Source: Candidatus Ozemobacteraceae bacterium (GTDB lineage: Bacteria; Muiribacteriota; Ozemobacteria; Ozemobacterales; Ozemobacteraceae). From it: a stretch of DNA of 51,578 nt. The first letter of the stretch is position 1. Each line of letters begins with the position of its first letter. The stretch covers positions 1-51,578 of the forward strand of contig DAOSOK010000013.1 of the NCBI GenBank assembly GCA_035373905.1, written 5' to 3'. Position numbers and translations under genes: made by a program. Under the pieces are notes generated by a model. It was not told where the DNA came from. It saw nothing but the letters and a program-made list of their open reading frames with translations, and did not search any database. Positions 24,558 through 41,115 of this stretch are shown here, in pieces.

Positions 24558-24566
24558 TTGAAGAGA

Positions 24567-25304: not shown

Positions 25305-26541
25305 GCTGGTTCAACCTTTCCCGAACTTTGTCAGCCTCAGCATGATCGGGAAATCGCTTCAGGAACTCAGAGTACTGTTTCTTGGCTTCATCATTGTCTT
25401 TCAGCTGAGTCCGGTACAGATCTCCCTTGCGCATCAAGGCCTCAGCCGATACATCGGCATCCGGGTATCGTTCCGTGAGCCTGTCGTAATAATCGATCGC
25501 CTTACGGGCCCCCTCGTCGTTCTTGCGATATCTCACGGTGCCATCGACAACGCGTGTCTTGTAGTCGGTGAGGTTCTCCTCGTAGATGCGGCCGAGCTTG
25601 AAGAGGCTCTGATCAGCGTTCGGAGCGTCCGGAAACTTCTGCATCATTTCTTCGAGGGTGGCGGCGGCGTTCTTGTAATCCTTCTGCTTTTCGTCCATCA
25701 TGCTCGCCATCAGCCTGTAGGCATCGCGAGCCAGATCGGAGTTCGGGGAATCTGCGATGACCTTCCGATAGGCCTCGATCGCTTTCGCGTAGTCTCCCTG
25801 TTTTGCATGCATGGCGGCGAGGTCCATGTTGGCCTGAGCGCTCTGGGCTTCCGACTGTGCGGCTTCGGCGATGTTTTCCTGCGCCTCGATCGCCGCGACG
25901 CTCTGGCCGGTGCCAGGAGCGAGGGCCTTCATCCGCTTCTGGGCCTCCCGGAAAAAGGAGCTGTACGGGTGTTTTTCGACGAGTTCGCGGTACATTCGCG
26001 CCGCATCCTCGAATTTTCCGGTGCGCTCGTAGGAGAAAGCGAGGTGGTAGACGACTTTGTCGATCGACATGAAGTTCGGGTATTCGGATAAAACGCGCGC
26101 ATACGCATCGATGGCCTTCGGATAATCATTCAGGCGCTCCTCGTAGACCCTGCCGAGATCGTACAGAATCCGGGGCGAGTCCGGCCCCTTCACACCGCCG
26201 GCCTTGACGCCCTCCGACATGTTCGTCGCGGCGTCGAGGAAATGACCGAGCGCCTGCGACATCTCATTCTCGGCCTGGCGCATCCGGATCGTTCCGATTT
26301 CGACACGGGCGGCGGCCGCGAGTTCGGGGTTTGAAAAAAGGTTCTGGAGGGCACCGATCGCACCGTCGAAATTGGACTGGGCAAGAAGTTGCTGCGCCTG
26401 CTGGTATTCTCCGGTCATCTGGATTGCGGCGTTCTGGCCGGCGGCCGGGGCTCCCCCCCCTGCGCTCCAGAGCGAGCAGGCTGAGATCAGCACGGCGACG
26501 ACCGCGTCGCGACGGATTCGAACGGGAAAGGAGAGAATCAT
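25291..26541 (-). CDS. TPR-repeat lipoprotein (BamD/YfiO-like or Tol-Pal YbgF/CpoB-like).
   Basis: Signal peptide with Cys (LISAC). Repeated TPR-like helices carrying Y...A...Y motifs throughout. Confidence 0.55.
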   Translation of the reverse strand: MILSFPVRIRRDAVVAVLISACSLWSAGGGAPAAGQNAAIQMTGEYQQAQQLLAQSNFDGAIGALQNLFSNPELAAAARVEIGTIRMRQAENEMSQALGHFLDAATNMSEGVKAGGVKGPDSPRILYDLGRVYEERLNDYPKAIDAYARVLSEYPNFMSIDKVVYHLAFSYERTGKFEDAARMYRELVEKHPYSSFFREAQKRMKALAPGTGQSVAAIEAQENIAEAAQSEAQSAQANMDLAAMHAKQGDYAKAIEAYRKVIADSPNSDLARDAYRLMASMMDEKQKDYKNAAATLEEMMQKFPDAPNADQSLFKLGRIYEENLTDYKTRVVDGTVRYRKNDEGARKAIDYYDRLTERYPDADVSAEALMRKGDLYRTQLKDNDEAKKQYSEFLKRFPDHAEADKVRERLNQLESD

Positions 26542-26710
26542 GGGCGACCTCCGTTATTCAGGCGTTCCAAGTGCATCAGACAATCGACGAATTCGAGTGT
26601 TCCGCAGGCGATTATACGTGTGATCCCGCGAGATTGACAAGGGTTCCCGGCTCTGTTAGGTTTTTCAGACGGGCTCATATTCACCGAATTTCTTTCTGAA
26701 AGGGCTCATC

Positions 26711-27583
26711 GTGCCAGGAACAAATGCCGATATACCGAACGGCGGAGTTACTCATCGGGTTGAAACTCCCGGCTTGATCTTCGATCTGCTACCGATCGAA
26801 AAGGTCGCACCCAACCCGAAGCAGCCCCGCAAGATCTTTGACCGCACCACCCTTGAAGAGCTTGCCCAGTCGATCCGTGCGAACGGCGTTCTCCAGCCGA
26901 TTCTCGTCAGACGCTGGGGCGACGGGTATCAGATCATCTCCGGCGAGCGGCGGTATCAGGCCTGCAAGATCGCCGGCCTGACGCAGATTCCCGCCGTCCT
27001 CCGCGACATGAACGAACAGCAGACCCTCCTTGCTGGCCTGATCGAAAACATCCAGCGGGAAGACCTGAATCCCGTAGAAGAGGCGGCGACGCTCCGGCAG
27101 ATTATCCTGGAGTTCGGGTTGACGCACGACGAACTGGCCCGGCGGCTCGGAAGAAGCCGTTCCGCCCTCACGAACCGCCTGCGGCTGCTCTCGCTCCCGG
27201 GTCACGTCCAGCAACTCATCGCGAGCGGAAAGATCTCCGCCGGCCACGCCAAGATGCTGGCAGGGCTCCGCGATCACAGCGAGGTCCAGGCCTGGGTCGA
27301 CCGGATTCTTACCAAGAGCCTCTCGGTATACGAAACGGAAAAGGAACTGGCCGATGCGAAGCCGTCCGGAAACGGGCACCCGGGAAACAGGTCTCGAGCT
27401 TCGGCACCCCGGAAGCAGGCCGGCGATATCCATGTCCGCCAGGTCGAATCACGCATCCAGGAACTGCTCGGCGCCAAGGTACACATCCGGCAGGGCCGCG
27501 CCAAAAGCCGGATCGAGATAGAATTCTATAGCAATGAAGATTTGGAACGAGTCGTAGACATGCTGCTGACCCTTCGCCAGTAA
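26711..27583 (+). CDS. parB: ParB/Spo0J-family partition protein, full length with ParB-box, HTH and C-terminal dimerisation regions; there is no adjacent canonical ParA.
   Basis: LQPILVRR...YQIISGERRYQACKIAGLTQIPAVLRDMNEQQTLLAGLIENIQREDLNPVEEA. Candidate TTGACA-N17-TAGGTT about 60 nt upstream. Confidence 0.85.
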   Translation: MPGTNADIPNGGVTHRVETPGLIFDLLPIEKVAPNPKQPRKIFDRTTLEELAQSIRANGVLQPILVRRWGDGYQIISGERRYQACKIAGLTQIPAVLRDMNEQQTLLAGLIENIQREDLNPVEEAATLRQIILEFGLTHDELARRLGRSRSALTNRLRLLSLPGHVQQLIASGKISAGHAKMLAGLRDHSEVQAWVDRILTKSLSVYETEKELADAKPSGNGHPGNRSRASAPRKQAGDIHVRQVESRIQELLGAKVHIRQGRAKSRIEIEFYSNEDLERVVDMLLTLRQ

Positions 27584-27641
27584 CGGCGAGGAGAGGGCGG
27601 CGAAACCCTGAACTTCGACCGTAAGAAGGGAAACGAGTTCG

Positions 27642-28529
27642 GTGTATATAAAATTCTGGGGTGTCAGAGGATCCGTTCCCGTTCCCGGGAAAGATACGAT
27701 CCGCTATGGCGGAAACACGACCTGTATTGAGATTCGCACGAATGAAGGCCAGCTGATCATCGTCGATGCCGGGACGGGCATCCGTCTTCTCGGTCTCGAG
27801 CTTCTCAAGGGTGATTTCGGCAAGGGGAAGGGCGTCGCGCACATTCTCTTCACCCACTCCCACTGGGATCACATCCAAGGTTTTCCCTTCTTTCCGCCCG
27901 CGTATATCGGCTCGCGCGACGCGTCCGGCGCCCGCGTCGACGGCTCATGCAACACGCTTCATCTGTACGGCGCATCGGACGTCGACGATCGCCTCGAAGC
28001 GACGCTGCGCGGCCAGATGGAACACTTCTACTTCCCGGTCGATCTCAACACCCTGAGCGCCAAACTCACCTTCAATCCCATGCAGGGAAAGCCGATCGAT
28101 ATCGGCGCGGCGCAGATTTCATCCCGCCGTCTCATTCACCCGAACGGCGTGCTCGGGTATCGCATCCAGGACGGCGACAGCAGCGTCGTCGTGGCGACGG
28201 ACTGCGAACATCCGTCGGACGGCTCGATCGATGCGAATCTTCTCGAACTTGCCACCGGAGCCGACCTCCTGATTTACGACGCACAATATACCCCCGAGGA
28301 ATACAACCCCGCGGCCCACGGAAGCCGCGGCCCGAGCAAAATCGGCTGGGGTCATTCGACGATGGTCGAAGGCGCGAAGCTCGCAAAGACCGCCGGCGTG
28401 AAGCACTTGGTTCTCACTCATCACGATCCCCTTCACAACGATGTCGCGATCGATGCGATCGAGAAGCGTGCCAAATCCGAGTTTCCGTCTTCCCAGGCGG
28501 CGTTTGAGGGGCTCGTCATTCAGATCTGA
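27642..28529 (+). CDS. MBL-fold metallo-hydrolase (PhnP/YycJ/RNase-Z-like).
   Basis: HxHxDH motif ILFTHSHWDHIQGF; downstream ATDCEH and LTHHD metal ligands. Confidence 0.75.
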   Translation: MYIKFWGVRGSVPVPGKDTIRYGGNTTCIEIRTNEGQLIIVDAGTGIRLLGLELLKGDFGKGKGVAHILFTHSHWDHIQGFPFFPPAYIGSRDASGARVDGSCNTLHLYGASDVDDRLEATLRGQMEHFYFPVDLNTLSAKLTFNPMQGKPIDIGAAQISSRRLIHPNGVLGYRIQDGDSSVVVATDCEHPSDGSIDANLLELATGADLLIYDAQYTPEEYNPAAHGSRGPSKIGWGHSTMVEGAKLAKTAGVKHLVLTHHDPLHNDVAIDAIEKRAKSEFPSSQAAFEGLVIQI

Positions 28530-28586
28530 TTCTTCCCGGTACCCCCTGTTTCACGACGAACCGGGGTGTGCTACTATTGGGGCGAC

Positions 28587-31500
28587 ATGGGCAGCACCCC
28601 GTTCCTCACACCCGTTTTCCTTTTCGGCTCGATTCGCGGCGGTTCAGGCAAATCGAGCATCGTCGCCCATCTCTCGGTTTACCTCCAGTCGAAAAGCCGA
28701 CGAGTCGCGGTCATCGACGCCAATGCCCCGTTTCCGAACCTTTTCCGCAGCGTTCTCCCCCGTTCCGTCTCACTCGAATGCTACACTGACCTGACGGACC
28801 TGGTGGTCGAGGGGTCGTCGCGGTTCAGACGCACATTCGTTTTCACCGCCACGGACAAGATTTCGTATTTTCCCGCGTTCAAGCTGAAAGACCCGGTGCG
28901 CCTGCTGTCGGATGCTTCCCTCCGCGACTTTTTCCTCCAGCTCCGATCGCACTTCGACGTCGTGCTGATCAACCTGCCGCCCGGCTGCGACAATTTCGTC
29001 GTCGCCGAGACATTCCTGCAGAGACGCGGGAACGATGCGGGGGCACCGGCCGCCGTCCTGGTCACGACGACCGACGTGCGAAGCCTGGCGTTGCTGGACT
29101 CGATGCTCAGGTCCCGGCCGGCGTTGTTTCATTTCGCGCGCGAACGGCTCATGTTCGTCTACAACATGCTTCCGCGCGGCATCGAAGATACGACGATCGA
29201 ACGGGCGCGCCTCAACTGGAACGAGACCCGGCGGTTGTTCCGGCTTCCGATCTCTCTCGGCATATCGATGATCGACGAGTTCGAGGCGCAGGCGAAAGCC
29301 GCCTTGCCCCTCGTCACCCAGGAATCCTCGCTCATCCGGCAGACGATGGCGACCCTGTCAAGAACGCTGTCGGACGTCGCGGAGGGCCAATGGCAAGGAG
29401 ATCCCCCCAAAGGGGAGGCCGACGAGTTCGCCCCCTGTCTCGACAGCTTTCTCCTCGAGCGGCTGAACCGGCACATCGAGCCCCTGCAGAACATTCTCGC
29501 CCGCCGTCTCTGCACGCACGGAGCTATTATATCATCTTTTATAGAATCAAGCGCATCCGCCTACCGCTTTCGTCTTCGCCTTTCCGGCATCGGCCGCCGA
29601 AGCCTCCCGCCGATCCTCGACCTCCACTTCCCGGCCTTCAAGACCGAGCGCGGCGGAAGAATCCCTCCACGATTCACCCTCGATCCCGAATTCGCGCCGC
29701 CGCCGGAGTCCGCTCTCGAGCAGGAGGAACGGCCGTCCATTTCCGCGAAACCGCTGTATCATTTCGACGACCGGTTCGCTTCGAGATGCCGGTTCGATAT
29801 CTTTTCAGAAACTTCTTTTTCCTGGCTCGACGCCATGTCGGACAGGAACCCTGAATGGCGGGGCTACATCGCGCCCTCGGATCTTCCATCCCTTACCCGG
29901 CTTCTCGGGTTTCAGAAGAATCTGCGGAAGCAGGATGCGTTTCTCTTCCAGCGCATCGAGTTCGCTCCGGAGATCAGGCCCTCGCTGATCTCGACGGAGT
30001 TCAACCTCTGCACGTCGTTTTCCTGCCGCGCAGCTTTTCCATGGCTGTTTGACGACCGTCTCCGCGCCGCTCCGGCGAGCGTCGGCCACGTCGCGCTCGA
30101 CATCCCCTCGCGCGAGGCTCTCTCCGTCCCCGCCGGGCCGGATGCGTATCTCGAACTTCCGGGGTTCGTTCGAACGAACCTGGCGCTCATCGCCAGCATC
30201 GTCCCGAAGTCCGAAGACGAGGACCGCGTCACCCGCCAGATACGCGCCGGTATTCACCCGCGCCGAGAGCTGGCCCCCTCCGCCCCCCCGCAACCGCGCT
30301 CGTATCCGCCCGAAACGCGGGCATGTGCGACTCCGGAGCTCACCCCGTTCGAAGCCCGGCGGTCCTCCTTCGCTCTCAGACTTGGCGTTCTGCTGGCCGA
30401 CTTCTCGGCCCTCCCTCACGACACCTCCTTCCTGACCGACGAGATCTGCGCCGGGTTCGAGAAATTCCAGACCGACGCGGCTTTCCAGATACGCCTTCGC
30501 CGCCGGAAACGCCTTGCCTTTCCGTCGACGTCTCCGCTGCCGGGCGAACTCGCCCTCGGATCGATCCCGACTCCGTCCCGCAACCTCCCGATCGCTCCCG
30601 GCCTCGGCCTTTCCCTGCCCCAAACCTTCGGAATAGATTCCGACTCGATCCACGCGCGCGATTCGGCACCTCTCCCGGAATTCATCGGCCGCCTCTTTTT
30701 CGAACCATCGCTCCAACGCGCCGTTCCAATCCCCCCCCCTCCATTCCGCCTGCCACGCCGCTTCGGCATGGCCCCCTTCCTGATCGAACTGACTCTGCCG
30801 CGGATCGCCTGGGGAGACCTTCCCTACCGGGTCGCGGTTCAGGAGACCTCTTCCCGCCCCTCTCCGGCTTCGCTGGATTTCGCCGCCGGCCTCGAAATAT
30901 ACGATTATCTATTCAAACAAGGCATTTCCGGCATATCCCTGCTGAAGAGGCCTCCCAGCATTTCCGTGTTTTTCAAGCCGATGACCTGGTCGTTCAGGAA
31001 CCTCGAGTATGCTCCCGTCACGCGCCGCCCGTTCGACACCCGGAGCGTTTTCCCGGCTGCCTGGAGCCCGGGGAAAATCGCGCAGTATGCCGGTTTCCAG
31101 AGGCTCCAGTCCGGCTCATTCGCCGTCATCGACGTCGACTGCACCGACCACGTGAAACTGCTCAGGCTGCCTTTCCTCCAGCTTCTGGCGCCTTCCGCCC
31201 CCACGAACGCCGCATCATGGGTGTACGGAACCGTCGATGTCGCCCCCGTCCGCGATCCGGCCGTTCCTTCGGAATGCGAGTTCTGGAACCTCTACGAGCC
31301 GGACAACCAGTTTCCCCTTCCGGATTTCGGAAAGCGCCCGGGTCTCGTCTCGTCGGGGCCCATCGTCAGCACCGCAATGCCGCCCCTCTCCACCCCAAAC
31401 CCAGGGCTATGCATATTCGCGTTCGACATCCGCGAGTTCGCCCCTCCCGGGTATCAGCCTCCGGAAACCGCCATCAGCATTCTTTCGGAACCCTACACGA

Positions 31501-32195
31501 TCCTCACGACCCTCCCCTCCTGCCTCGAACCGGTTTCCCCGCGTCGACCACTCTCCATCGGCGAGCGCTGGCTCCTCGTCCGGGCGGCGGCGTGGAACGA
31601 TTCCGCAACGCGCATCCGGCTTCTCGAGCACATGCCGGCCCGATTGAAGTCCCCCACGCTCGACATCATCAAGCCGTATTCGCGGCCGGCTCTCCCTCTG
31701 CCGCCGGTCAGCCCCGAGCCGACCTGCGCCCAGCCTCCCATGCCCCCCAGAACGGATTTTCGGAAGCCATACAGGCACCCCGACCCCGCGATTCTTTTCA
31801 CGCCTGCTTCGCCGGGCCCGCTCCTCAAGAAAGTGTTCCCGCTCGAACTCCTGGCACGACGTTCGAAACTCCCCTACTCGATGGTATCCGGAATCGACAT
31901 GCTGTATGCCTGTCTCATGGATCGCGCCCGAAGATCCCTGTATGGGCCGATCGAGCACAGGCAAACAAAAATCGTCCAACCGCCCCGATTCTGGCGCGAC
32001 ACGCTCGCCGTCTCCAATCCGCCGAAGAAGGCTTCCGCCCACGATATTGACGTGTTCTTCTCCTGCCCCGACCGCATTCATGAGAAAATCGTCCGAAGGC
32101 AGGCGATCCTCGGCTCCCGCGTCACGGGGCTGCTGGAAGCCATCAAACTAACCCAGGCTTCGGTGGATCGCCTCTCTTCCAGCACCCCGTCATGA
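28587..32195 (+). CDS. Giant protein: an N-terminal MinD/ParA-superfamily deviant Walker-A ATPase of about 230 aa, fused to a Pro/Ser/Leu/Phe/Arg-rich region of about 950 aa with no recognisable domains.
   Basis: Deviant Walker A FGSIRGGSGKSSIVAHLSVYL...VAVIDAN. Walker B-like FDVVLINLPPGCDNF. A MinD-like VLVTTTDVRSLALLDSML segment. GC3 of about 80% in this frame over the whole length. The ORF is open from GTG 28566; the ATG at 28587 is preferred. Confidence 0.7.
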   Translation: MGSTPFLTPVFLFGSIRGGSGKSSIVAHLSVYLQSKSRRVAVIDANAPFPNLFRSVLPRSVSLECYTDLTDLVVEGSSRFRRTFVFTATDKISYFPAFKLKDPVRLLSDASLRDFFLQLRSHFDVVLINLPPGCDNFVVAETFLQRRGNDAGAPAAVLVTTTDVRSLALLDSMLRSRPALFHFARERLMFVYNMLPRGIEDTTIERARLNWNETRRLFRLPISLGISMIDEFEAQAKAALPLVTQESSLIRQTMATLSRTLSDVAEGQWQGDPPKGEADEFAPCLDSFLLERLNRHIEPLQNILARRLCTHGAIISSFIESSASAYRFRLRLSGIGRRSLPPILDLHFPAFKTERGGRIPPRFTLDPEFAPPPESALEQEERPSISAKPLYHFDDRFASRCRFDIFSETSFSWLDAMSDRNPEWRGYIAPSDLPSLTRLLGFQKNLRKQDAFLFQRIEFAPEIRPSLISTEFNLCTSFSCRAAFPWLFDDRLRAAPASVGHVALDIPSREALSVPAGPDAYLELPGFVRTNLALIASIVPKSEDEDRVTRQIRAGIHPRRELAPSAPPQPRSYPPETRACATPELTPFEARRSSFALRLGVLLADFSALPHDTSFLTDEICAGFEKFQTDAAFQIRLRRRKRLAFPSTSPLPGELALGSIPTPSRNLPIAPGLGLSLPQTFGIDSDSIHARDSAPLPEFIGRLFFEPSLQRAVPIPPPPFRLPRRFGMAPFLIELTLPRIAWGDLPYRVAVQETSSRPSPASLDFAAGLEIYDYLFKQGISGISLLKRPPSISVFFKPMTWSFRNLEYAPVTRRPFDTRSVFPAAWSPGKIAQYAGFQRLQSGSFAVIDVDCTDHVKLLRLPFLQLLAPSAPTNAASWVYGTVDVAPVRDPAVPSECEFWNLYEPDNQFPLPDFGKRPGLVSSGPIVSTAMPPLSTPNPGLCIFAFDIREFAPPGYQPPETAISILSEPYTILTTLPSCLEPVSPRRPLSIGERWLLVRAAAWNDSATRIRLLEHMPARLKSPTLDIIKPYSRPALPLPPVSPEPTCAQPPMPPRTDFRKPYRHPDPAILFTPASPGPLLKKVFPLELLARRSKLPYSMVSGIDMLYACLMDRARRSLYGPIEHRQTKIVQPPRFWRDTLAVSNPPKKASAHDIDVFFSCPDRIHEKIVRRQAILGSRVTGLLEAIKLTQASVDRLSSSTPS

Positions 32196-35100
32196 GCCTG
32201 TCGCATCTCGGGAAATTTTCCGAACCCGTTTTCGACGCGGCTCTCCCGGCAAAGCCGACGATTTTCCCGGTCGCCCGCCGGGTCGTCAGCCACGCCGCAC
32301 GGTCGCTGTTCGCCGGAAAACTGCTGTTCCCCGTCGCCATTCCCGGGAAGGAAGGACAGCACTGTTTCGCCTCGGATCCCCGACGCCTTTTCCGCATGCC
32401 GCGCGTGAAACATTCCTCCGTTTCCGTTCTTCCGGCCGTCGTCTCGAGAACGAACCACACGTTCGCCCCGCCGCCTCACGCTCAGATCCAGCCCCGACAG
32501 CGACTCGACTTCTCTCCATGCAAACTTCCGCCTCGCCCCGAGCTGCGGCCCCGCGCCCCCGCCTCAATCGGCGCACCGGTCCTCTCTCTCGCGGAAGCGT
32601 GCGCGCAGCCGTCCATCCGCCTCTCCCGGCCTCCCGTGAAGAACCTCAGGGAGCCGCTGTATTTCCAGAAATGCCTCATCTCCCGCTTCGAGATTTCCCG
32701 TCTTCGCCGGATGGCGCAGGCATCCGACTGGCAGTCCGTCTCGAAACCGCCTGCGGATCTCGTTCCTGCGTCGCCCCTGCCGGAACCATGGAATTGGTTC
32801 GCTCTTTCGGCGCGGGGCCGGGCCGACCGTTCATCAGTCATGACACGCCCCCTGCAGGCCGGTCCTCTCGATCCTCCCCGGCCCCGGCTTCTCTACCCGA
32901 CCGCAACGCGAAGGCCGTCCCTCATGCCCCCCCTCTGGAAATTCCTTGCGCACGGCCGGCACGCCGTTTCCGCCTGGCGGCCTGTCTGCCGTCTGCCGAC
33001 CGGGCCTCTCTCCATCCTGTCGTTGCAGAGGCGGCTTCCTTTCGCGGAGCTCCTTCCCGAAGGTCCTCCCCCGGCACCGATAGACAGGGATGTATATCTA
33101 TCTATATATATTTCGGACGCTCTTTCCATCCGGCCCCATTCTTTCATCGCGGAATTTTCTCACGGCCGAAGCCGGGTTCGGCCGGCGGCCCACTCCGGCA
33201 TCGCTCCGGTTTTTCATCCCGACGCTCGCCTCGCCGCCCCGACCGCCCACTCGGGAACCGTGACGGAGATCATCACGAATATCGCCCGCGCACGTCTTGC
33301 CGACATCCGGGGTGTTCCGCCGGCCCGACTGGCCAGGAAATGGCCTCACGCCGTCTTCCGACCGCTTCGGCAACTTTTGTTCCGCAAGCCGTTTGCGAAG
33401 CGCTTCGATTTCCCCCCCCCTGAACCACCCGGATTCAACGTCATCGCGCCCAGATCATTCGCTTCTCTCCGCCCCGTCAGCGGAGATCTCCGCGCGGCAA
33501 TGAAGAATGAACCAGACGCCGCCAGAGCGAAGCCCGCCGAGCGGCGCTCCCGCAGTTCGTTCAGCCATTCTCCGATGGAGCGTTTCCTGGCGAAGACCGG
33601 ACTTCATCTTCCCGACGCCCGCGTGTCCGATCTCCGCATCTCCGCCATTCAGCCGGCTCCCGTGATGTGCCCCGGCGGCGCGACCCGCAAGGGCGTCAGA
33701 CAAGCGCTCGGCATGCCCGAACGCCGTGCCGTCGCCGAAAAGGCCCTGTTCACTCCGAGAGAAAAGCAGCGCACGACGTTCAGGACATCGGCCGTTCCCG
33801 CGCAACCCAACGTTCACGCTTCAGAACTTCGCGTTCCCGTTCCCGCCATGCAGGTGCTGTGCCTGACCGCCGCTCCTCGCGGCCCCAGGCCTCTTGCGCT
33901 TCCCAGACGCCTCCCGCCCGCCGGCGAGCCTGAACGCATGCTCAGACTCATCGCCTCGCTTCCCCGCAGAGCCCATTCGACAAGGCATTACCTGCTGACG
34001 CTCGAATCGAACCTCATGCCCTGGAAGCAACGTTCACAGCCCCGACGCACCCGGGTCGCCCTGCCCAGAGAGCTCCTGGTTCCTCGCTCGCCCTCCTTCG
34101 CCAGGGAAGTCATGCTCCCCCAGGATTTCCAAGCGGTTTCACCCGCCTCGAAACGCGCCTTTCTCACCACGGGCATCAGCACGGCCTTTCTCTCTCTCCG
34201 CGAAGCCGCCCTGCCGGCTTCCCTCCGCATCGCGCACGACCGGCCCCGCCTTTCACCGACGCCATCGCCACCCCCGACGTCCGTTGCAGGGGCCCGGTTT
34301 CTCGACGCCCCCGAATGGATTCGCCCCGCCCGCCAGCCCAGAATGAAAATCCGTTACTGGCCCACATTCTATGAACTCTCGCCCACGACGCCGGCCGTCG
34401 GCATGCGGCTTTCGGAACTCGGCCGCGCCGCCCTGCCGCCGGCCCCGGCGTCACGAGCGATCGCATCCCTCGCCGGCGTCTTCGGCATCAGACGGCGCGA
34501 TCGCCCCCGCGGCCCGTACAGCATGCGACAGCCGAAACGCTGGCTTTTGAAGACGAACGCGGCCGCGATCGGCGTTCCCGACGTCTGCCTCCACGAAATG
34601 GCTCTTCCAACGACCTCCCCGTCGAGACTCGACTCGGGCGAGCGTCACCCGCCCGCCTTCATGGGCCCGGCGTTCCGCGCCCCCTGGACGTCGGTCGTCA
34701 TCAGACCGGAGGAGCTCCGTCAGTTCGTTGCGGAACCCGCGGCCCCCCCGCCCCCCGAGCGGCTCCCGCACTGCAGGGCCACGACACGGCCGGCCACCGA
34801 GCCCGCCCTCTCGTTCCAGGAGGCGCCGATGCCCCGCGTCATTACGACCGCGAGACTTTCCCCTCTGTCTCCTCCCGGAGAGACGTTCGTCATCAGCTTC
34901 GGCCCCCAATCCTTCAGACCGGTCGGCCCCGCCGTATCCGGCGCTCGATGCGAACCGCCCGGTGAAGTCCGGCTCGACTCCCTGCGAATCATCGAACCGT
35001 TCGTCGAACTCCGGCCGGATCTTTTCGCCGACGAGTTCGGGGAACCGGCGGCAGGCGGCGGCTTCTTCATCCGCGACCTTCTCTGCGATCTCATCGTCGT

Positions 35101-36235
35101 CCGCGGCGATCACTATGCACGCTGGCGAAGCCTTTTTTTCCCGTACAAGCCCGACGTTCGAGGCCTCGGCGACGTATCCGACGCTCCGCTCGAGCCGACG
35201 CCCGAATCCTTCATGCAAACCCTGCTCGACGGAATGGGACCGCTCGAACTCGCTCCCGGCATTCTCGCCATGCGGCGGGAGCATGAGGAGCCTCCGACGG
35301 TAAGAGACGAAAAAGTACCTTTCCCGTTTGCTCCGGGACATCTCCGCGCCGAACCCTTCAGCAGACTTCCCGTCCTCTTGTCAGACGTCTTCGGATTCGA
35401 CATCCTCGAGGCTCCGGCCGCGCCGGCCGAGGAATGGGATTTTTCGACATCGATGTATGTGCCGTTCATCCCGGCTCCCCTGCCGAACATCCTACCGCGT
35501 GAGGACGGCCTCGCAGCCGCCTCGTCTCCGTTCCCTCAATCTTTTTCGGAGCCGGTTCCGTCCGTTTCCTGGCCCCGCCGGCATCCCGCGGTATCCGAAG
35601 CATTCCCGTCGCTCGAACAGCCCGGCAATCATGCGATCATCATCGCCGGTCGATGGAACCGCAAACTTCCCGTCGACGGCGGGTTCCGTGTGCGCCACTC
35701 GATATCATCCCCAACGCTGTTTTCCGGCGTTCACCGGCTGGAACTGCCTGCTCTTCCCCCAGAGGCTTTCCAGGCCTTGCACATCGTCGATCTCGCACCG
35801 GCCACAATCGTCTGTCACACGTTGCTGAATCCCGTTGCATCGCCTGCGGCGCGACTGGCGACTCCAGCGTCTTCCGGTCCAAGCATTCCGTCGGACACGG
35901 TTTCGGCATCTCGCACGGCCGTCCTTCCGTTCGCGCGGCCGTTGCTCCATTTGCCTGCCGGGCGGTACAGGCAGCACGAGGTTTCGGGAGTTGGCGCAGG
36001 CAGACGGATTTCCTTCCGGAAACAGGAGTTCGGCTTCGCCCTTTCCCCCATCGGCGTCTTTCCTTCGCTGGCCCTGCCGATGCTCGAACGAAAGGAGCGG
36101 CGGTGTTCCTCGAAGTTCAAAATCTCCATTCCCGGAAAGGCAGCCGTTCATCCGGCCGCGATTCCCGACTGGGTGGAGCTGTCGTCCGCACGACCGGCGT
36201 GCAGACCTCCGGCCGGCCTACAAACACCTACATGA
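32192..36235 (+). CDS. Second giant (1347-aa) Pro/Ala/Arg/Ser/Leu/Phe-rich protein with no recognisable domain; its start overlaps the stop of the preceding gene (ATGA).
   Basis: A 4-kb uninterrupted frame with coding-type third-position GC bias. Its composition matches the tail of the preceding protein. The antisense ORFs across it are Arg/Gly-rich GC-shadow ORFs. Confidence 0.65.
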   Translation: MSLSHLGKFSEPVFDAALPAKPTIFPVARRVVSHAARSLFAGKLLFPVAIPGKEGQHCFASDPRRLFRMPRVKHSSVSVLPAVVSRTNHTFAPPPHAQIQPRQRLDFSPCKLPPRPELRPRAPASIGAPVLSLAEACAQPSIRLSRPPVKNLREPLYFQKCLISRFEISRLRRMAQASDWQSVSKPPADLVPASPLPEPWNWFALSARGRADRSSVMTRPLQAGPLDPPRPRLLYPTATRRPSLMPPLWKFLAHGRHAVSAWRPVCRLPTGPLSILSLQRRLPFAELLPEGPPPAPIDRDVYLSIYISDALSIRPHSFIAEFSHGRSRVRPAAHSGIAPVFHPDARLAAPTAHSGTVTEIITNIARARLADIRGVPPARLARKWPHAVFRPLRQLLFRKPFAKRFDFPPPEPPGFNVIAPRSFASLRPVSGDLRAAMKNEPDAARAKPAERRSRSSFSHSPMERFLAKTGLHLPDARVSDLRISAIQPAPVMCPGGATRKGVRQALGMPERRAVAEKALFTPREKQRTTFRTSAVPAQPNVHASELRVPVPAMQVLCLTAAPRGPRPLALPRRLPPAGEPERMLRLIASLPRRAHSTRHYLLTLESNLMPWKQRSQPRRTRVALPRELLVPRSPSFAREVMLPQDFQAVSPASKRAFLTTGISTAFLSLREAALPASLRIAHDRPRLSPTPSPPPTSVAGARFLDAPEWIRPARQPRMKIRYWPTFYELSPTTPAVGMRLSELGRAALPPAPASRAIASLAGVFGIRRRDRPRGPYSMRQPKRWLLKTNAAAIGVPDVCLHEMALPTTSPSRLDSGERHPPAFMGPAFRAPWTSVVIRPEELRQFVAEPAAPPPPERLPHCRATTRPATEPALSFQEAPMPRVITTARLSPLSPPGETFVISFGPQSFRPVGPAVSGARCEPPGEVRLDSLRIIEPFVELRPDLFADEFGEPAAGGGFFIRDLLCDLIVVRGDHYARWRSLFFPYKPDVRGLGDVSDAPLEPTPESFMQTLLDGMGPLELAPGILAMRREHEEPPTVRDEKVPFPFAPGHLRAEPFSRLPVLLSDVFGFDILEAPAAPAEEWDFSTSMYVPFIPAPLPNILPREDGLAAASSPFPQSFSEPVPSVSWPRRHPAVSEAFPSLEQPGNHAIIIAGRWNRKLPVDGGFRVRHSISSPTLFSGVHRLELPALPPEAFQALHIVDLAPATIVCHTLLNPVASPAARLATPASSGPSIPSDTVSASRTAVLPFARPLLHLPAGRYRQHEVSGVGAGRRISFRKQEFGFALSPIGVFPSLALPMLERKERRCSSKFKISIPGKAAVHPAAIPDWVELSSARPACRPPAGLQTPT

Positions 36236-36298
36236 TGCGTTGACTTGCCCTCGGTCATGAAGTTAGAATGCCCGTAAGTTCCGCCTGAGAGGAAGAAC

Positions 36299-37081
36299 AT
36301 GAATTTTATCTCCATGTATGACAAAGGCATGGTCCGACCAAACAACGAGGACTACACAGAGAGTTTCCAGTGGAACTGGTGCAGTTGCACGGGCGTCCAG
36401 GAGTCGTTCACGGCTCTCATCGTGGCAGACGGCATGGGCGGCGCCGCCGCCGGCGAGTATGCATCCTCGCTCGCCGTGAAAACCATCAAAGAGAAGCTCC
36501 AGGCCAGTCTCCTGTCGGACAACGTCGAGGCCGTCCTCGCGGGGGACCTTCGGGAAGCGCTGGCCGGCTACTGCAAAGAGGCGAACGCGGCGATCTATTC
36601 CAAGGCCCAGGCGAACCCTGAGATGGAGGGCATGGGAACGACAATCGTCATAGCTATTATATGTCGTGATATGCTCACGCTGTGCCACGTGGGTGACAGC
36701 CGCTGCTACATGCACCGGGAAAACCGCCTGAAGCGTCTCACCCGAGATCATTCTCTCGTTCAGGAGTTGATCGACGCAGGCAAGATCGCTCCCGACCAGG
36801 CGGAAAAGCATCCGAACAAAAACGTGATCACACGGGCGCTCGGCGTAGCCGCAACGGTCGAGCCGGAGTGTTCACGGCTTCCGATTTTCACGGGGGACGT
36901 CCTGGTCCTCGGGAGCGACGGTCTGTGCGGCTTCGTGGACGAACACACGATCAAGGACATGGTCGAGAAGCAGGCTTCCCAGCCCAACGCGAATCTCAAG
37001 CAACTCGCCCAGAACCTTATCGAGTGCGCCAACATGAACGGAGGCGCCGACAATATTTCCGTCTGCCTCTATCGCCACTGA
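36299..37081 (+). CDS. PP2C-family Ser/Thr protein phosphatase (Stp1/PrpC-like, cytoplasmic).
   Basis: RPNNEDY, ALIVADGMGGAAAGEYAS, TLCHVGDSRCY, LVLGSDGL and GGADNISV motifs. GAGAGGAAG ribosome-binding site upstream. Confidence 0.85.
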   Translation: MNFISMYDKGMVRPNNEDYTESFQWNWCSCTGVQESFTALIVADGMGGAAAGEYASSLAVKTIKEKLQASLLSDNVEAVLAGDLREALAGYCKEANAAIYSKAQANPEMEGMGTTIVIAIICRDMLTLCHVGDSRCYMHRENRLKRLTRDHSLVQELIDAGKIAPDQAEKHPNKNVITRALGVAATVEPECSRLPIFTGDVLVLGSDGLCGFVDEHTIKDMVEKQASQPNANLKQLAQNLIECANMNGGADNISVCLYRH

Positions 37082-37103
37082 CGCCTGACGGGTAGCCCCG
37101 ACC

Positions 37104-38879
37104 ATGACCGATCCGCGGGATACCCGACACACATCCGGTCCCGATCGAAGCGTCGAGGATATGGACGCGCTCGCCCGCGAAATCGACGAACTCGCGAGAC
37201 AGCGCGAGCGGATCTTCCAGGCGCTGAAGCCGACCTCCGCACCAGCCGCCGCAGGCCTTGCCGAGCGCGCCGATCGGCTCGAGGCCGAAAACCGGCAGCT
37301 GAAGGAGCGGATCACCGCACTCGCCGAGTCGAGTTCCGGCCCCCTGGCCGACAAACTTCGAAGAACCGAGGAACTTCTCGAGGAGCGCACGCACGAACTC
37401 CAGCAGATGCGCCTGCAGAGTGCGTCCGAAGCTGCCCTTCTCGAGGAGATGAAGAAGCAGAATGCCGAGATCGAGCGGCTCAAAGCCCGGCTGTCCGAAG
37501 CCGACAAGGAGAAGCCCGATATTGCGGCACTCCAGGACGAACTCCGGAGGCTGAAGCTCAACCTCGCCGACGCGGTTCTCGAGCAGAAGCAGGCCGGCGC
37601 CACGAGCCAGGAGCTCCTGAAGCAGATTTTCGAGCTCAAGCAGGAGGTGTTCCAGCACCAGTCGCAGGTCAGGGACCTCACTGCACGACTCGATCTGAGC
37701 AAGCGGAACGAACAGGCCCTTTCCGAGCAGGAAAAAAAGCAGCAACTCGAACTCGCCGCCCTCCGCGCCGCGGTCGAGGAGTCGGCCCGGCAGATAGACA
37801 GACTGCAAGAGCAGACCCAAAGTCTCTCCGCCGAACGCGAGAAGGCCCTGGAGGAACTCGAGAAGGCACGCGCCGCCGCCGCCGAGTTCCAGACGGCGTT
37901 CACGAACCTCAAGGCGGAATACGAAGCCGAGAAGATCCAGCGGCAGGCGGCCGAAACCCGCGAGCATGAGATCGTGACGTCGTTCGACGCGATCAATCAG
38001 GAACGCCTGCTCCTCAAGGAAAAAGTCTCGCGGCTTCTCGTCGGCGTCAAGGCGTATATCACCCCGCCGTCGCGGCCCGCATCGTCGACGCCCGAGGACG
38101 GGGCCCTCGAGCCCAAGGAGATGCGGCCCTACATCCCCTTCTGCTTCCCCGACCGTCTCCCTGCGCAACTGCGCCCCCACTGGAAACGGACAAAGCGCCT
38201 TCCGCTCGTCACGCCGCCGGGAAGCCTGGTCACCGTTCGTATGGACGAGTTCAACAGACCGATTCGCAAACCGTTGCTGCAGACATACCGGTTCCGCGAG
38301 CTGGTGTGCCCGCCGACCTCGGCCCTGCCGACCGAGCCATATCTGCATTCCTTCCCCAGAGATTTTTCCATCGTCGCATCTCCTCTCGAATTTTCGTTCG
38401 CGGCGGCCCGATCGTCACATCCGTTCCCGGGGCCGTCGCGGCTCGAGGGCGTCGAACGCCGTTTCCCGCCCAGATCGCCGATCATCGAGTTCTCCGAAAA
38501 AATGGTTGTTCCGCCGATCGAGACGAAGGTTTTCACCACGTCGGTCGCCATGTTTTTCGACTACCTCGCAAGCGACATCATCACCGCGTTCCGGAACAGC
38601 ATGTACCGCCTCGGATACCGGTATCCGGCAGGTTCTTCCCCTCGGGAACTCATGTTCGGCCCCGAAACGAAAACGATCTCATCGGGAAGGGTTGCCTTAC
38701 ACACCACTTCTCATCTACAATTCGCGTTGCGTTACCCGGTACGCACGGAACTGCCCCCGCGATTCCCGCAGGACCGGCTCAAATATCTGCTGCGAACGAT
38801 CGGAGACTCGCTCTCTTCCATGATGGCCCGGCTTGACGACAACGAACCCGACGACGACTCGGAACCCAAACGAACGTAA
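37104..38879 (+). CDS. Coiled-coil protein (about 310 aa of heptad-rich helix) with a Pro/Phe/Arg-rich C-terminal half.
   Basis: Long runs with the character E..L...L..E...L between residues about 20 and 330. The C-terminal composition matches the giant proteins. It starts 22 nt after the PP2C stop. Confidence 0.65.
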   Translation: MTDPRDTRHTSGPDRSVEDMDALAREIDELARQRERIFQALKPTSAPAAAGLAERADRLEAENRQLKERITALAESSSGPLADKLRRTEELLEERTHELQQMRLQSASEAALLEEMKKQNAEIERLKARLSEADKEKPDIAALQDELRRLKLNLADAVLEQKQAGATSQELLKQIFELKQEVFQHQSQVRDLTARLDLSKRNEQALSEQEKKQQLELAALRAAVEESARQIDRLQEQTQSLSAEREKALEELEKARAAAAEFQTAFTNLKAEYEAEKIQRQAAETREHEIVTSFDAINQERLLLKEKVSRLLVGVKAYITPPSRPASSTPEDGALEPKEMRPYIPFCFPDRLPAQLRPHWKRTKRLPLVTPPGSLVTVRMDEFNRPIRKPLLQTYRFRELVCPPTSALPTEPYLHSFPRDFSIVASPLEFSFAAARSSHPFPGPSRLEGVERRFPPRSPIIEFSEKMVVPPIETKVFTTSVAMFFDYLASDIITAFRNSMYRLGYRYPAGSSPRELMFGPETKTISSGRVALHTTSHLQFALRYPVRTELPPRFPQDRLKYLLRTIGDSLSSMMARLDDNEPDDDSEPKRT

Positions 38880-38933
38880 ATCACCGCTTCCCGGTATTCA
38901 TTCCATTCAGAGACGCATGACGCAGGAGGACCC

Positions 38934-41072: not shown

Positions 41073-41115
41073 CCACGGCAGGTCCGGCGGTTTTCACTCC
41101 TGCTGAAATCATGAA

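What the first reader, a model, noticed from the sequence alone, without database searches (positions are those of the whole stretch)
29500..36235. A roughly 7-kb stretch with strong C/T (pyrimidine) bias on the coding strand leaves several + frames open for hundreds of codons
Across the two giant genes the + strand is visibly C- and T-rich (for example ctccttcctg and cctcccgatcgctcccggcctcggcctttccctgcccc). Stop codons are therefore rare in all + frames. Long alternative-frame + ORFs overlap the annotated frame: 30323..32050 (575 aa), 32518..33423 (301 aa) and 34728..35303 (191 aa). All are Pro/Arg/Ser-rich.

Third-position GC (about 80%, checked on two samples) supports frame 0 for gene 1 and the 32192 frame for gene 2. 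The open alternative frames mean that gene calling is ambiguous here. A frameshifting event would also produce long alternative C-termini rather than quick termination.
Basis: seen in the sequence. Interest (0 to 1): 0.5.

Follow-up and report, generated by a model that had tools for sequence, protein, structure and literature searches.

The report
Pyrimidine-rich giant gene pair, spurious ORFs
The C/T-rich stretch is real, but it reflects the proline/arginine/serine/leucine-rich make-up of two genuine, conserved giant genes of a GC-rich Riflebacteria genome; the long extra reading frames are non-conserved by-products, not hidden genes.

Summary
Observation confirmed. Bases 29500-36235 are 58.7% C+T, with GC skew about -0.23. 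All three quoted + strand ORFs exist at the stated coordinates.

Cause. The stretch is the tail of gene 1 (28587..32195; N-terminal ParA/MinD-type ATPase plus about 900 further residues) and all of gene 2 (32192..36235, 1347 aa, ATGA overlap). At four-fold degenerate sites both genes look like every other gene in the window. The excess pyrimidine sits at codon positions 1 and 2, so it comes from amino-acid composition (Pro 13-14%, Arg 9-11%, few Lys/Asn/Asp/Glu).

The annotated frames are the coding frames:
- substitutions peak at their third codon position in every 600-nt bin;
- dN/dS is 0.19-0.31;
- the gene pair and its neighbours are conserved across Riflebacteria with 33-73% GC.

The alternative ORFs are not genes. 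They are interrupted even in the closest relative, have non-coding GC patterns, cause no drop in dS, and vanish in low-GC orthologs. Their length also owes much to a window-wide avoidance of T|A and T|G at codon junctions.

The gene-calling problem is real in some orthologs, but the competitor is the antisense strand, not the + frames.

The compositional phenomenon is ordinary. The gene pair is an uncharacterised, phylum-restricted, divergent ParA-like system next to parB.

The parts
28587..32195 (+). Gene 1 (1202 aa from ATG 28587; ORF opens at GTG 28566, 1209 aa). A ParA/MinD-type ATPase domain is followed by a lineage-specific region of about 900 aa rich in Pro/Arg/Ser/Leu.
   Evidence: Orthologs of 1184-1212 aa share 21-83% identity. 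Met8 of the GTG-start ORF is invariant, and NCBI calls the 1202-aa form. dN/dS is .19-.21. Substitutions peak at codon position 3.
28587..29400 (+). ATPase domain (aa 1-270). Walker A is S-I-R-G-G-S-G-K-S at 28629-28655, with Arg17 in place of the signature Lys. Asn129 (28971-28973) replaces the Walker B Asp.
   Evidence: AF2 pLDDT is 60-84. Top Foldseek hits are ParA 3ea0 (E 1e-9), MinD, FlhG, MipZ, Soj and McdA. The residue-by-residue alignment to P. furiosus MinD is. Arg and Asn are invariant in 11 orthologs. Pfam CbiA scores 25.1 bits against a cut-off of 25.4.
29454..30026 (+). Conserved middle region of gene 1 (aa 290-480; motifs YRIRLRL and FDDRF).
   Evidence: Invariant columns are listed. 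This is the only part of the tail that HMMER still detects in distant orthologs.
30027..32192 (+). Fast-evolving tail of gene 1, pyrimidine-rich at the DNA level. Its length is tightly conserved, and it ends in a conserved predicted helix.
   Evidence: Pro is 13.4%. AF2 pLDDT is below 50. The distance from FDDRF to the C-terminus is 808 +/- 6 aa in 14 orthologs, although identity falls to 25% or less.
32192..36235 (+). Gene 2 (1347 aa). It has no known domain and is Pro 14.4%, Arg 11%, Ala 11.8%. Conserved short islands include aa 1-68.
   Evidence: Orthologs of 1290-1615 aa lie directly downstream of gene 1 in every full locus. dN/dS is .29-.31. There are no Pfam, NCBIfam, PADLOC or PDB hits. 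AF2 pLDDT is below 50 throughout.
32192..32195 (+). ATGA overlap of the gene 1 stop and the gene 2 start. There is no Shine-Dalgarno sequence upstream, so translational coupling is likely.
   Evidence: Sequence. The same 4-nt overlap is present in L001-L004, L006 and L009.
30323..32050 (+). Alternative-frame ORF (575 aa) inside gene 1: spurious.
   Evidence: The same frame is interrupted in L001 at gene-1 codons 652 and 991. L002 has 18 stops and L003 has 26. GC1/2/3 is .76/.62/.52. dS is not reduced. No pipeline ever called it.
32518..33423 (+). Alternative-frame ORF (301 aa) inside gene 2: spurious.
   Evidence: The frame has stops at gene-2 codons 108, 306, 307 and 317 in L002, and at 196, 206 and 307 in L003. 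A context-aware null explains how open this frame is, P .09-.27.
34728..35303 (+). Alternative-frame ORF (191 aa, TTG start) inside gene 2: spurious.
   Evidence: The stop count in this frame equals expectation, 14 observed against 14.6-17. L002 has stops at codons 968 and 1006.
29805..30716 (-). Antisense shadow ORF (303 aa). It has the best codon-usage score in the region but is not conserved.
   Evidence: Scores are. The boundaries of antisense open runs shift between orthologs, and L002 has none in this frame of gene 1. The substitution pattern fits the sense frame.
34451..35341 (-). Antisense shadow ORF (296 aa) inside gene 2.
26711..28529 (+). Upstream conserved neighbours: parB (26711..27583) and a metallo-beta-lactamase-fold gene (27642..28529).
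   Evidence: Pfam hits are. The synteny holds in all orthologous loci.
36299..41072 (+). Downstream conserved neighbours: PP2C phosphatase (36299..37081), a 591-aa coiled-coil protein (37104..38879) and a 712-aa TPR protein (38934..41072).

Best explanation
The pyrimidine-rich stretch is the DNA image of two genuine giant protein genes of a GC-rich Riflebacteria (Candidatus Ozemobacteraceae) genome.

Why the strand is pyrimidine-rich. In this window every gene has C-rich silent sites on its coding strand. In ordinary genes, purine-rich first and second codon positions cancel this out. In the tail of gene 1 and in gene 2, residue identity is only weakly constrained. The proteins have drifted to Pro, Arg, Ser, Leu, Ala and Phe (codons CCN, CGN, TCN, CTN, GCN, TTY) and away from Lys, Asn, Asp, Glu and Gln. 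All three codon positions are therefore pyrimidine-rich.

Why the alternative frames stay open. Three things combine: low A content, high GC3, and a window-wide avoidance of T-ending codons before A- or G-starting codons. Together they remove most TAA/TAG/TGA triplets from the frame that starts at codon position 3. Long Arg/Pro-rich ORFs appear there by accident.

What the alternative and antisense ORFs are. They are not genes and there is no programmed frameshift. The purine-rich antisense strand resembles normal coding sequence, which is why some pipelines mis-call orthologs.

Function (inferred, not shown). Gene 1 is a divergent ParA/MinD-type nucleotide switch. Gene 2 is its translationally coupled partner. 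Together they form a phylum-specific positioning or scaffold system tied to chromosome segregation, because of the conserved neighbours: parB, scpAB, PP2C, a coiled-coil protein and a TPR protein.

The confidence given (0.85) applies to the compositional and by-product explanation. The functional inference stands at about 0.4.
For: Composition.
- At four-fold degenerate sites the giants have C+T .586 and skew -.17; the other genes have .597 and -.21.
- At positions 1+2 the giants have C+T .582 and skew -.20; the others have .470 and +.03.

Dependence on genome GC. Across orthologs from 33% to 73% GC:
- Pro rises from 5% to 19% and Arg from 4% to 13%, while Lys falls from 13% to 1%;
- C+T rises from .47 to .62;
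- stops in the open alternative frame fall from about 110 to about 1 per 1000 codons;
- lengths and synteny stay fixed.

Reading frame.
- A frame-agnostic nucleotide alignment shows substitution rates ordered pos3 > pos1 > pos2 of the annotated frames in all 13 bins, against two relatives.
- dN/dS is .19-.21 for gene 1 and .29-.31 for gene 2.
- Full-length orthologs exist.

Alternative ORFs.
- They are not conserved.
- Their GC pattern is non-coding.
- Their codon-usage log-odds are strongly negative.
- dS is .50-.63 in the giants against .34-.53 in neighbours, so it is not depressed.
- They were never called by any pipeline.

Junction bias.
- The other 30 genes have 116 stops in that frame against 293 expected, a ratio of .40.
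- Observed/expected is .15 for T|AA.14 for T|AG and .59 for T|GA.
- With this bias built into the null, gene 2 is explained (P .09-.27) and gene 1 is marginal (P about .01).

Published background. A deficit of out-of-frame stops in many genomes, more so GC-rich ones, and spurious long ORFs in GC-rich genomes, are both published (PMC5909447, PMC2516542).

Function. ParA/MinD fold, ATGA overlap and conserved synteny.
Against: - Gene 1 is still somewhat more open in the alternative frame than the context-aware null predicts: 5 stops against 13.6, P about .01.
- The closest relative, L001, also has only 5 stops, though at different positions.
- 'Weakly constrained' does not fit well with dN/dS of .2-.3 along the whole length, or with the conserved tail length of gene 1 (808 +/- 6 aa).
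- Whether the tails are disordered is unsettled. AF2 gives pLDDT below 50 with shallow alignments. Mean hydropathy, however, is that of folded proteins.
- No expression or proteomic data were available.
- The functional assignment rests only on fold and gene neighbourhood.
Confidence: 0.85

Rival explanations
1. Dual coding: one or more of the long alternative + frame ORFs (for example 30323..32050) is a real overlapping gene.
For: In gene 1 the alternative frame is open for 665 codons. Synonymous and codon-order shuffles never reach this (0 of 500). It remains marginal under a context-aware null (P about .01).
Against: - The frame is interrupted in the closest ortholog (83% aa identity) at codons 652 and 991. 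More distant orthologs have 18-26 stops, and low-GC orthologs have 60-110 per 1000 codons.
- dS is not reduced.
- GC1 > GC2 > GC3 in the alternative ORF.
- Codon-usage log-odds are -35 to -83 per 450 nt.
- The stop deficit is shared by all genes in the window.
Confidence: 0.03
2. The region is mis-annotated: the true genes lie on the antisense strand, or the stretch is non-coding or pseudogenic.
For: A codon-usage model trained on the other 30 genes prefers an antisense frame in 17 of 23 sub-windows. Two pipelines called antisense ORFs in orthologs. GC3 periodicity is weak in gene 2.
Against: - Antisense frames carry 12-42 stops per gene, and their open runs move between orthologs.
- The ordering of substitution rates, pos3 > pos1 > pos2 of the sense frame, holds in every bin.
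- Uninterrupted ORFs of 1200 and 1300-1600 codons are kept in 14 or more species from 33% to 73% GC.
- dN/dS is well below 1.
Confidence: 0.02
3. Programmed -1 ribosomal frameshifting uses the open frame to make alternative long C-termini.
For: A -1 slip anywhere in gene-1 codons 494-1160 would be read for up to 665 codons.
Against: There is only one X_XXY_YYZ heptamer per gene (CCCAAAC at codon 942 of gene 1; TTTTTTC at codon 980 of gene 2). Neither is conserved in L001-L003. The downstream alternative frame is not conserved either.
Confidence: 0.02
4. The skew is a local strand-specific mutational footprint (transcription- or replication-associated) rather than a consequence of protein composition.
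For: Silent sites of all genes in the window are C-rich on the coding strand (C .45-.51 against G .30-.34). A strand-linked bias therefore exists and may be what the weakly constrained protein sequence has drifted toward.
Against: The giants are not more skewed than other genes at four-fold sites.586 against .597, with a per-gene range of .40-.69. The whole excess sits at positions 1+2.
Confidence: 0.06

Closest known systems
Spurious long 'shadow' ORFs, and the deficit of out-of-frame stop codons, in GC-rich prokaryotic genes (Veloso et al. 2005 as cited in PMC2516542; Abrahams & Hurst 2018, PMC5909447)
   Same: There are long open alternative and antisense frames inside real genes. Their frequency rises with GC: in the 73%-GC ortholog L006 the whole 1201-codon antisense frame of gene 1 is open. 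Out-of-frame stops are fewer than codon- or synonymous-shuffle nulls predict. Gene finders are misled.
   Different: The effect is amplified here by extreme amino-acid composition and by gene length, giving a 6.7-kb block that stands out from neighbouring genes (z about 3).
ParA/MinD family of deviant Walker A ATPases (Soj, MinD, MipZ, FlhG, ParF)
   Same: The N-terminal 270 aa share the fold and the GxGK[ST] P-loop. The switch-I Asp is conserved. The gene sits two genes downstream of parB.
   Different: The signature Lys is an invariant Arg. The Walker B Asp is an invariant Asn. The domain is fused to a family-specific region of about 930 aa with fixed length. The Pfam score is just below the gathering threshold.
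Type 1 McdA/McdB carboxysome-positioning system (PMC7182216)
   Same: A ParA-type ATPase lacks the signature Lys. The partner gene lies immediately downstream, has no detectable homologs outside the clade, and has low-complexity, possibly disordered character.
   Different: McdA has Ser, not Arg, at that position and is about 220-250 aa. McdB is about 150 aa with a coiled coil. Here both proteins exceed 1200 aa. No microcompartment genes are nearby. No sequence relationship between the partners was found.
MipZ (ParB-dependent division-plane positioning ATPase of Caulobacter), the name NCBI gives to ortholog P0012
   Same: It is a ParA/MinD-fold ATPase functionally linked to ParB. MipZ structures are among the Foldseek hits.
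   Different: The sequence match to MipZ is insignificant (Pfam E .0033, below cut-off; PDB E .4-.6). MipZ keeps the signature Lys and has no giant extension.

Membership tests
ParA/MinD (deviant Walker A) ATPases | P-loop GxxGxGK[ST] | tested here: met
   S-I-R-G-G-S-G-K-S aligns to S-G-K-G-G-T-G-K-T of P. furiosus MinD. G-x-G-K-[ST] is invariant in 11 orthologs.
ParA/MinD (deviant Walker A) ATPases | Signature lysine at the start of the Walker A box (KGGxxGK[ST]) | tested here: not met
   Arg17 (Arg24 in GTG numbering) occupies this position in all 11 orthologs.
ParA/MinD (deviant Walker A) ATPases | Walker B aspartate at the end of the hydrophobic strand (hhhhD) | tested here: not met
   F-D-V-V-L-I-N-L-P-P-G aligns to F-D-F-I-L-I-D-C-P-A-G. 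The Asn is invariant.
ParA/MinD (deviant Walker A) ATPases | Switch I / Walker A' aspartate (DxD) | tested here: met
   The first Asp (D44; D51 in GTG numbering) is invariant. The second is Asn in the window and close relatives, and Asp in distant orthologs.
ParA/MinD (deviant Walker A) ATPases | SIMIBI-class ParA/MinD fold | tested here: met
   In the AF2 model, residues 10-270 have pLDDT 60-84. Foldseek finds 3ea0 ParA at E 1.2e-9 with target TM .66, then MinD, FlhG, Soj, MipZ and McdA.
ParA/MinD (deviant Walker A) ATPases | Score above the curated family threshold | tested here: not met
   Pfam CbiA scores 25.1 bits against a cut-off of 25.4. NCBIfam MinD scores 23.5 against 212.9.
ParA/MinD (deviant Walker A) ATPases | ATP-dependent dimerisation, surface (DNA or membrane) binding, and partner-stimulated hydrolysis | not testable with these tools
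   This needs biochemistry or multimer modelling.
Overlapping (dual-coding) gene | Alternative-frame ORF conserved in orthologs | tested here: not met
   Stops lie inside the homologous interval in L001, L002 and L003. Low-GC orthologs have 60-110 stops per 1000 codons.
Overlapping (dual-coding) gene | Reduced synonymous divergence in the main frame over the overlap | tested here: not met
   dS is .42-.82 in sliding windows of gene 1 and .39-.88 in gene 2 against L001. Neighbouring genes have .16-.53.
Overlapping (dual-coding) gene | Coding-like codon usage or GC3 pattern in the alternative frame | tested here: not met
   The alternative ORF has GC1 .76 > GC2 .62 > GC3 .52. Log-odds are strongly negative.
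Overlapping (dual-coding) gene | Evidence of translation | not testable with these tools
   No Ribo-seq or proteomics was available. None of the ORFs appears as a called protein among about 15 billion sequences.
Programmed -1 frameshift site | Conserved slippery heptamer X_XXY_YYZ in phase | tested here: not met
   There is one heptamer per gene, and none is shared with L001-L003.
Intrinsically disordered proteins | No confidently predicted fold or secondary structure | tested here: inconclusive
   pLDDT is below 50 for gene-1 residues 319-1180 and for all 1200 modelled residues of gene 2. The alignments held only 13 and 7 sequences. No Pro-free stretch exceeds 39 aa.
Intrinsically disordered proteins | Low mean hydropathy and high net charge (Uversky plot); free length variation | tested here: not met
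   Mean hydropathy is .475-.484, on the folded side and equal to the folded neighbours. The tail length of gene 1 has an sd of only 6 aa across the phylum.
McdAB-like two-gene positioning system | ParA-type ATPase followed directly by a clade-specific partner gene | tested here: met
   There is a 4-nt overlap, and the gene order is kept in all full loci.
McdAB-like two-gene positioning system | Partner binds a cargo and stimulates the ATPase | not testable with these tools
   No cargo genes were identified. Neighbours are parB, an MBL-fold gene, PP2C, a coiled-coil protein and a TPR protein.

The most novel reading that the evidence does not exclude
Riflebacteria carry a phylum-specific segregation or positioning module next to parB, with two parts. 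The first is a ParA/MinD-type switch with non-canonical catalytic residues (Arg for the signature Lys, Asn for the Walker B Asp), fused to an extension of about 800 residues. The length of this extension is held to within 1% while its sequence and composition are almost free to change. The second is a translationally coupled partner of about 1300 residues that carries only short conserved motifs. Such a pair could act as a length-defined spacer or scaffold, or as a condensate, organising the origin region or the division site.
Probability: 0.25. Interest if true: 0.6.

Novelty: new variant of a known kind. Interest (0 to 1): 0.27.

Why it matters
As stated, the finding (pyrimidine skew plus open alternative frames) is a textbook compositional artefact. 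Its main practical value is as a warning. Codon-usage-based gene finders prefer the wrong strand here, and they have dropped or mangled gene 2 in several public Riflebacteria annotations.

Two side results are of modest wider interest:
- It is a clean natural example of orthologous proteins whose composition swings from Lys-rich to Pro/Arg-rich as genome GC changes, while protein length and gene order stay fixed.
- It is an uncharacterised, phylum-restricted ParA-like gene pair beside parB with altered catalytic residues. This pair may be the chromosome-segregation or division-positioning system of a phylum that has never been cultured.

Tried and rejected
- **Domain searches.** Pfam, NCBIfam, PADLOC and PDB sequence searches of gene 2, of six low-GC orthologs, and of a 7-sequence profile found nothing.
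- **Paralogy.** BLASTP of the gene-1 tail against gene 2, and each against itself, showed no paralogy and no internal repeats. Tandem Repeats Finder returned only four trivial 15-25-nt hits.
- **Profile search with the gene-2 alignment.** It added only one partial identical sequence.
- **Exhaustive HMMER search of the gene-1 tail against 1.84 billion representatives.** It gave 9 hits, all orthologs.
- **AF2 of both proteins.** Only the ATPase domain was modelled. This cannot separate disorder from a shallow alignment.
- **Rfam scan of the window.** It found only a tRNA at 2816-2890.
- **Promoter and terminator scan.** Nothing was significant inside the genes.
- **A wrong inference of mine, now corrected.** I first concluded that JGI had not called gene 2 in this contig. 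The exact 1347-aa protein is in NCBI, JGI, ENA and Logan. It was hidden behind a partial cluster representative.
- **First null models.** The plain codon-order and synonymous shuffles overstated the significance of the open frame, because they ignore codon-junction bias. A context-aware null replaced them.
- **Charge-hydropathy plot.** It did not support the simple 'disordered' label.

Full report
**1.

- Bases 29500-36235 are A .157, C .389, G .255, T .198, so C+T is .587. The rest of the window has C+T .503-.507.
- GC skew is -0.20 to -0.25 in every 1-kb bin between 30 and 35 kb. In the flanks it is about 0 to -0.13.
- Coding-strand C+T of the two long genes is .580 and .585. The 30 other genes I could delimit in the window average .506 (sd .024), so z is about 3.
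- The quoted 38-mer is at 30584-30621.
- The three quoted ORFs are exactly where stated and are Arg/Pro/Ala/Ser-rich.
- Only one of the two alternative + frames is unusually open. This is the frame that starts at the third position of the real codons. It has 5 stops in gene 1 (longest run 665 codons) and 7 in gene 2 (longest run 409). The other + frame has 16 and 14 stops, close to expectation.

**2. What is there**

- ORF 28566..32195 and ORF 32192..36235 overlap by ATGA, with no Shine-Dalgarno sequence before the second start.
- Gene 1 most likely starts at ATG 28587. That Met is invariant, orthologs are 1200-1202 aa, and NCBI calls the 1202-aa form.
- Both proteins have full-length orthologs. 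Gene 1 shares 83, 75 and 61% identity with its closest relatives, falling to about 21%. Gene 2 shares 70, 59 and 46%, falling to about 13%.
- All orthologs come from Candidatus Ozemobacteraceae or Riflebacteria metagenome bins.
- Nine loci fetched by exact protein look-up share the same gene order: TPR gene (opposite strand) | parB - MBL-fold hydrolase - gene 1 - gene 2 - PP2C phosphatase - about 590-aa coiled-coil protein - 712-aa TPR protein. The scpA/scpB genes lie further upstream.
- A scan of 185,579 species genomes found the gene in 16 species. All are Riflebacteria by label or by the identity of the neighbouring genes. Two are labelled Avigastranaerophilus, a Melainabacteria genus, but carry the same neighbours at Riflebacteria-like identity.
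- The gene-1 tail has only 9 representative clusters among 1.84 billion proteins, all orthologs.

**3. Which frame is coding**

- GC3 periodicity favours the annotated frames: GC1/2/3 is .62/.50/.76 in gene 1 and .68/.56/.72 in gene 2. It is weak in gene 2.
- A codon-usage model trained on the other 30 genes picks the annotated frame in only 6 of 23 sub-windows and an antisense frame in 17. The purine-rich antisense strand looks like ordinary coding sequence.
- The + strand alternative frames always score strongly negative.
- The decisive evidence is evolutionary. In a nucleotide alignment made without reference to any frame, substitutions against L001 and L002 peak at the annotated third position and are fewest at the second. 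This holds in all 13 bins of 600 nt.
- dN/dS against three relatives is .19-.21 for gene 1 and .29-.31 for gene 2. Neighbouring genes have .004-.20.
- There is therefore a single dominant frame throughout.

**4. Why the strand is pyrimidine-rich**

- At four-fold degenerate sites the two genes (C .448, G .320, T .138, A .093; C+T .586) are indistinguishable from the other genes (C+T .597; per-gene range .40-.69).
- At positions 1+2 they differ sharply. C+T is .582 with skew -.20, against .470 and +.03 in the other genes (per-position values).
- The excess is therefore amino-acid composition. Pro is 13-14%, Arg 9-11%, Ser 8-9%, Leu 10-11%, Ala 9-12% and Phe 5-6%. Lys, Asn, Gln, Tyr, Asp and Glu are depleted.
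- This composition is not fixed. Across orthologs from 33% to 73% GC:
  - Pro goes from 5-6% to 19%;
  - Arg goes from 3-4% to 13%;
  - Lys goes from 13% to below 1%;
  - C+T goes from .47 to .62.
- I infer that residue identity over most of these proteins is weakly constrained. Positions 1+2 have therefore drifted toward the same C-rich, A-poor composition seen at silent sites.

**5. Why the alternative frame is open, and whether it means anything**

- Codon-order and synonymous shuffles predict about 28 stops per gene in that frame. Observed counts are 5 and 7 (0 of 500 shuffles).
- The same deficit affects every gene in the window. The other 30 genes have 116 observed against 293 expected, a ratio of .40.
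- The cause is that T-ending codons avoid a following A or G. Observed/expected is .15 for T|AA.14 for T|AG and .59 for T|GA.
- With this junction bias built into the null, gene 2 is fully explained (P .09-.27). Gene 1 is marginal: 5 stops against 13.6, P about .01.
- Negative excesses of out-of-frame stops under such nulls, more so in GC-rich genomes, are published (PMC5909447). So is the abundance of spurious long ORFs in GC-rich genomes (PMC2516542).
- The ORFs are not conserved:
  - Inside the 575-aa ORF, the closest relative L001 has stops at gene-1 codons 652 and 991. L002 has 18 stops in that frame and L003 has 26.
  - The 301-aa and 191-aa ORFs are likewise interrupted.
  - Low-GC orthologs carry 60-110 stops per 1000 codons.
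- dS is not depressed.
- The alternative ORF has GC1 > GC2 > GC3.
- There is no conserved slippery heptamer.
- Antisense open runs shift between orthologs. In the 73%-GC ortholog the whole antisense frame of gene 1 is open, which shows that the effect scales with GC.
- None of the six alternative or antisense ORFs of this window was ever called as a protein in a collection of about 15 billion sequences. Both annotated proteins are present there.
- Gene-calling failures do occur in orthologs. JGI omitted gene 2 in L005, although ENA/NCBI called it on the identical sequence L004. Logan called an antisense gene in L007. NCBI kept only a 470-aa piece in L008, although a 1301-codon stop-free run (a 1300-aa ORF) is present.

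**6. What the proteins are**

- Gene-1 residues 1-270 form a ParA/MinD-type P-loop domain. AF2 pLDDT is 60-84.
- Foldseek hits are Chlorobium ParA 3ea0 (E 1e-9, target TM .66), then MinD, HypB, FlhG, MipZ, Soj and McdA.
- The residue-level alignment to P. furiosus MinD shows three things:
  - Walker A is S-I-R-G-G-S-G-K-S, with Arg in place of the signature Lys.
  - Switch I is D-A-N, where MinD has D-G-D.
  - Walker B is L-I-N, where MinD has L-I-D.
- The Arg and the Walker-B Asn are invariant in 11 orthologs.
- Pfam CbiA is just below its gathering score, 25.1 against 25.4.
- A conserved middle region (aa 290-480; motifs YRIRLRL and FDDRF) follows the ATPase domain. After that comes a tail whose sequence decays to 25% identity or less.
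- The length of that tail is strikingly constant. From FDDRF to the C-terminus it is 808 +/- 6 aa (793-817) in 14 orthologs from 33% to 73% GC. The residual BLAST matches are collinear.
- The tail ends in a conserved predicted helix.
- Gene 2 has no detectable domain in any library, in this window or in low-GC orthologs. It has no internal repeats and no similarity to the gene-1 tail.
- About a dozen short conserved islands persist across the phylum. The strongest is the N-terminal 68 residues (PVFD ... V-x-R-R-x-V-S-x-A-x-R-S-L-F-A-G-K ... C-F).
- AF2 gives pLDDT below 50 throughout gene 2. The few short helices it predicts coincide with these islands.
- Whether the tails are truly disordered is open.
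  - For disorder: AF2 results; Pro spaced so that no Pro-free stretch exceeds 39 aa; rapid divergence; composition that follows GC.
  - Against disorder: mean hydropathy equal to folded neighbours; purifying selection along the whole length; near-invariant length of the gene-1 tail; ordinary-looking composition in low-GC orthologs.

**7. Likely function (inference)**

- The window contains no canonical parA/soj, and the flanks of the orthologous loci contain none either.
- The only ParA-type gene near parB is gene 1, two genes downstream. Its stop codon overlaps the start of gene 2.
- By analogy with two-gene ParA/MinD systems, I consider the following most likely (about 40%). Gene 1 is a nucleotide-dependent switch, possibly slow or non-hydrolysing given Arg-for-Lys and Asn-for-Asp. 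Gene 2 is its partner or adaptor. The pair belongs to a chromosome-segregation or division-positioning module with ParB, the PP2C phosphatase, the coiled-coil protein and the TPR protein.
- The closest analogy is type 1 McdAB. There the ATPase also lacks the signature Lys, and the partner is a clade-specific, disordered protein encoded immediately downstream (PMC7182216).
- None of this was tested here.

**8. Verdict**

- Its cause is ordinary and already described in kind: amino-acid composition of two long, weakly constrained proteins in a GC-rich genome, plus a window-wide codon-junction bias.
- The alternative ORFs are artefacts.
- The genes underneath are an uncharacterised, phylum-restricted variant of a ParA-type system. 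They are of moderate interest in their own right.

Noticed in passing
window 38934..41072 (+) and antisense ORF 38907..41045 (-): The 712-aa TPR protein is the most conserved gene of the cluster. It is 100% aa-identical to the L001 ortholog despite dS .16 (dN/dS .004). It stays 82-86% identical in 34-41% GC relatives, where ParB is only about 60% identical. GC3 is .92. Its complete antisense frame is open, giving a mirror 712-aa ORF that is certainly spurious.
   Followed up: partly
all genes of the window: T-ending codons strongly avoid a following A or G. Observed/expected is .15 for T|AA.14 for T|AG and .59 for T|GA. This gives a 60% deficit of stops in the frame that starts at codon position 3, across 30 unrelated genes.
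   Followed up: partly
window 1..51578; strand switch near 26600: Silent (four-fold) sites are C-rich on the coding strand of every gene (C .51 against G .34). Genes diverge from about 26.6 kb, next to parB, and cumulative GC skew peaks at about 25 kb. If this divergence point is near the origin, the leading strand would be C-rich, the reverse of the usual rule. No dnaA or DnaA boxes were looked for.
   Followed up: no
gene 1 tail, window 29763..32192, and orthologs: The distance from the FDDRF motif to the C-terminus is 808 +/- 6 aa in 14 orthologs, although tail identity falls to 25% or less and composition changes completely with GC. No explanation was found for such strict length conservation.
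   Followed up: partly
L005 13627-17790; L007 13682-14416; L008 13579-16069: Public annotations of orthologs mishandle gene 2. JGI calls three tiny antisense ORFs instead. Logan calls a 244-aa antisense gene. NCBI annotates only the last 470 aa of a 1300-aa ORF.
   Followed up: yes
L023, L025 (JAZRWI010000056.1, JAZUDR010000310.1): Two MAGs labelled Candidatus Avigastranaerophilus (Melainabacteria in NCBI taxonomy) carry the Riflebacteria-type cluster. Their ParB (59%), MBL (58%) and TPR (82%) identities match those of rumen Riflebacteria bins. The label is probably a taxonomic mis-assignment.
   Followed up: partly
low-GC orthologous loci L021, L022: The coiled-coil gene of about 590 aa, which lies between PP2C and the TPR gene in the window (37104..38879), gave no tblastn match in the low-GC loci L021 and L022 (GC .34-.35). 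There PP2C is followed directly by the TPR gene.
   Followed up: no
window 36240..36269 (+): The best sigma-70-like promoter match on the + strand (TTGACT-18-TAGAAT) lies in the 63-nt gap between gene 2 and the PP2C gene. The downstream genes may therefore have their own promoter.
   Followed up: no
window 2816..2890 (+); 43162..46089 (+); 7142..8440 (+): Other content of the window: one tRNA; a HAMP-SpoIIE phosphatase of 975 aa; an adenylate/guanylate cyclase fused to an RDD domain; a sigma-54 activator with a histidine kinase; amylase/pullulanase genes; and acetate kinase/phosphotransacetylase-like genes.
   Followed up: no
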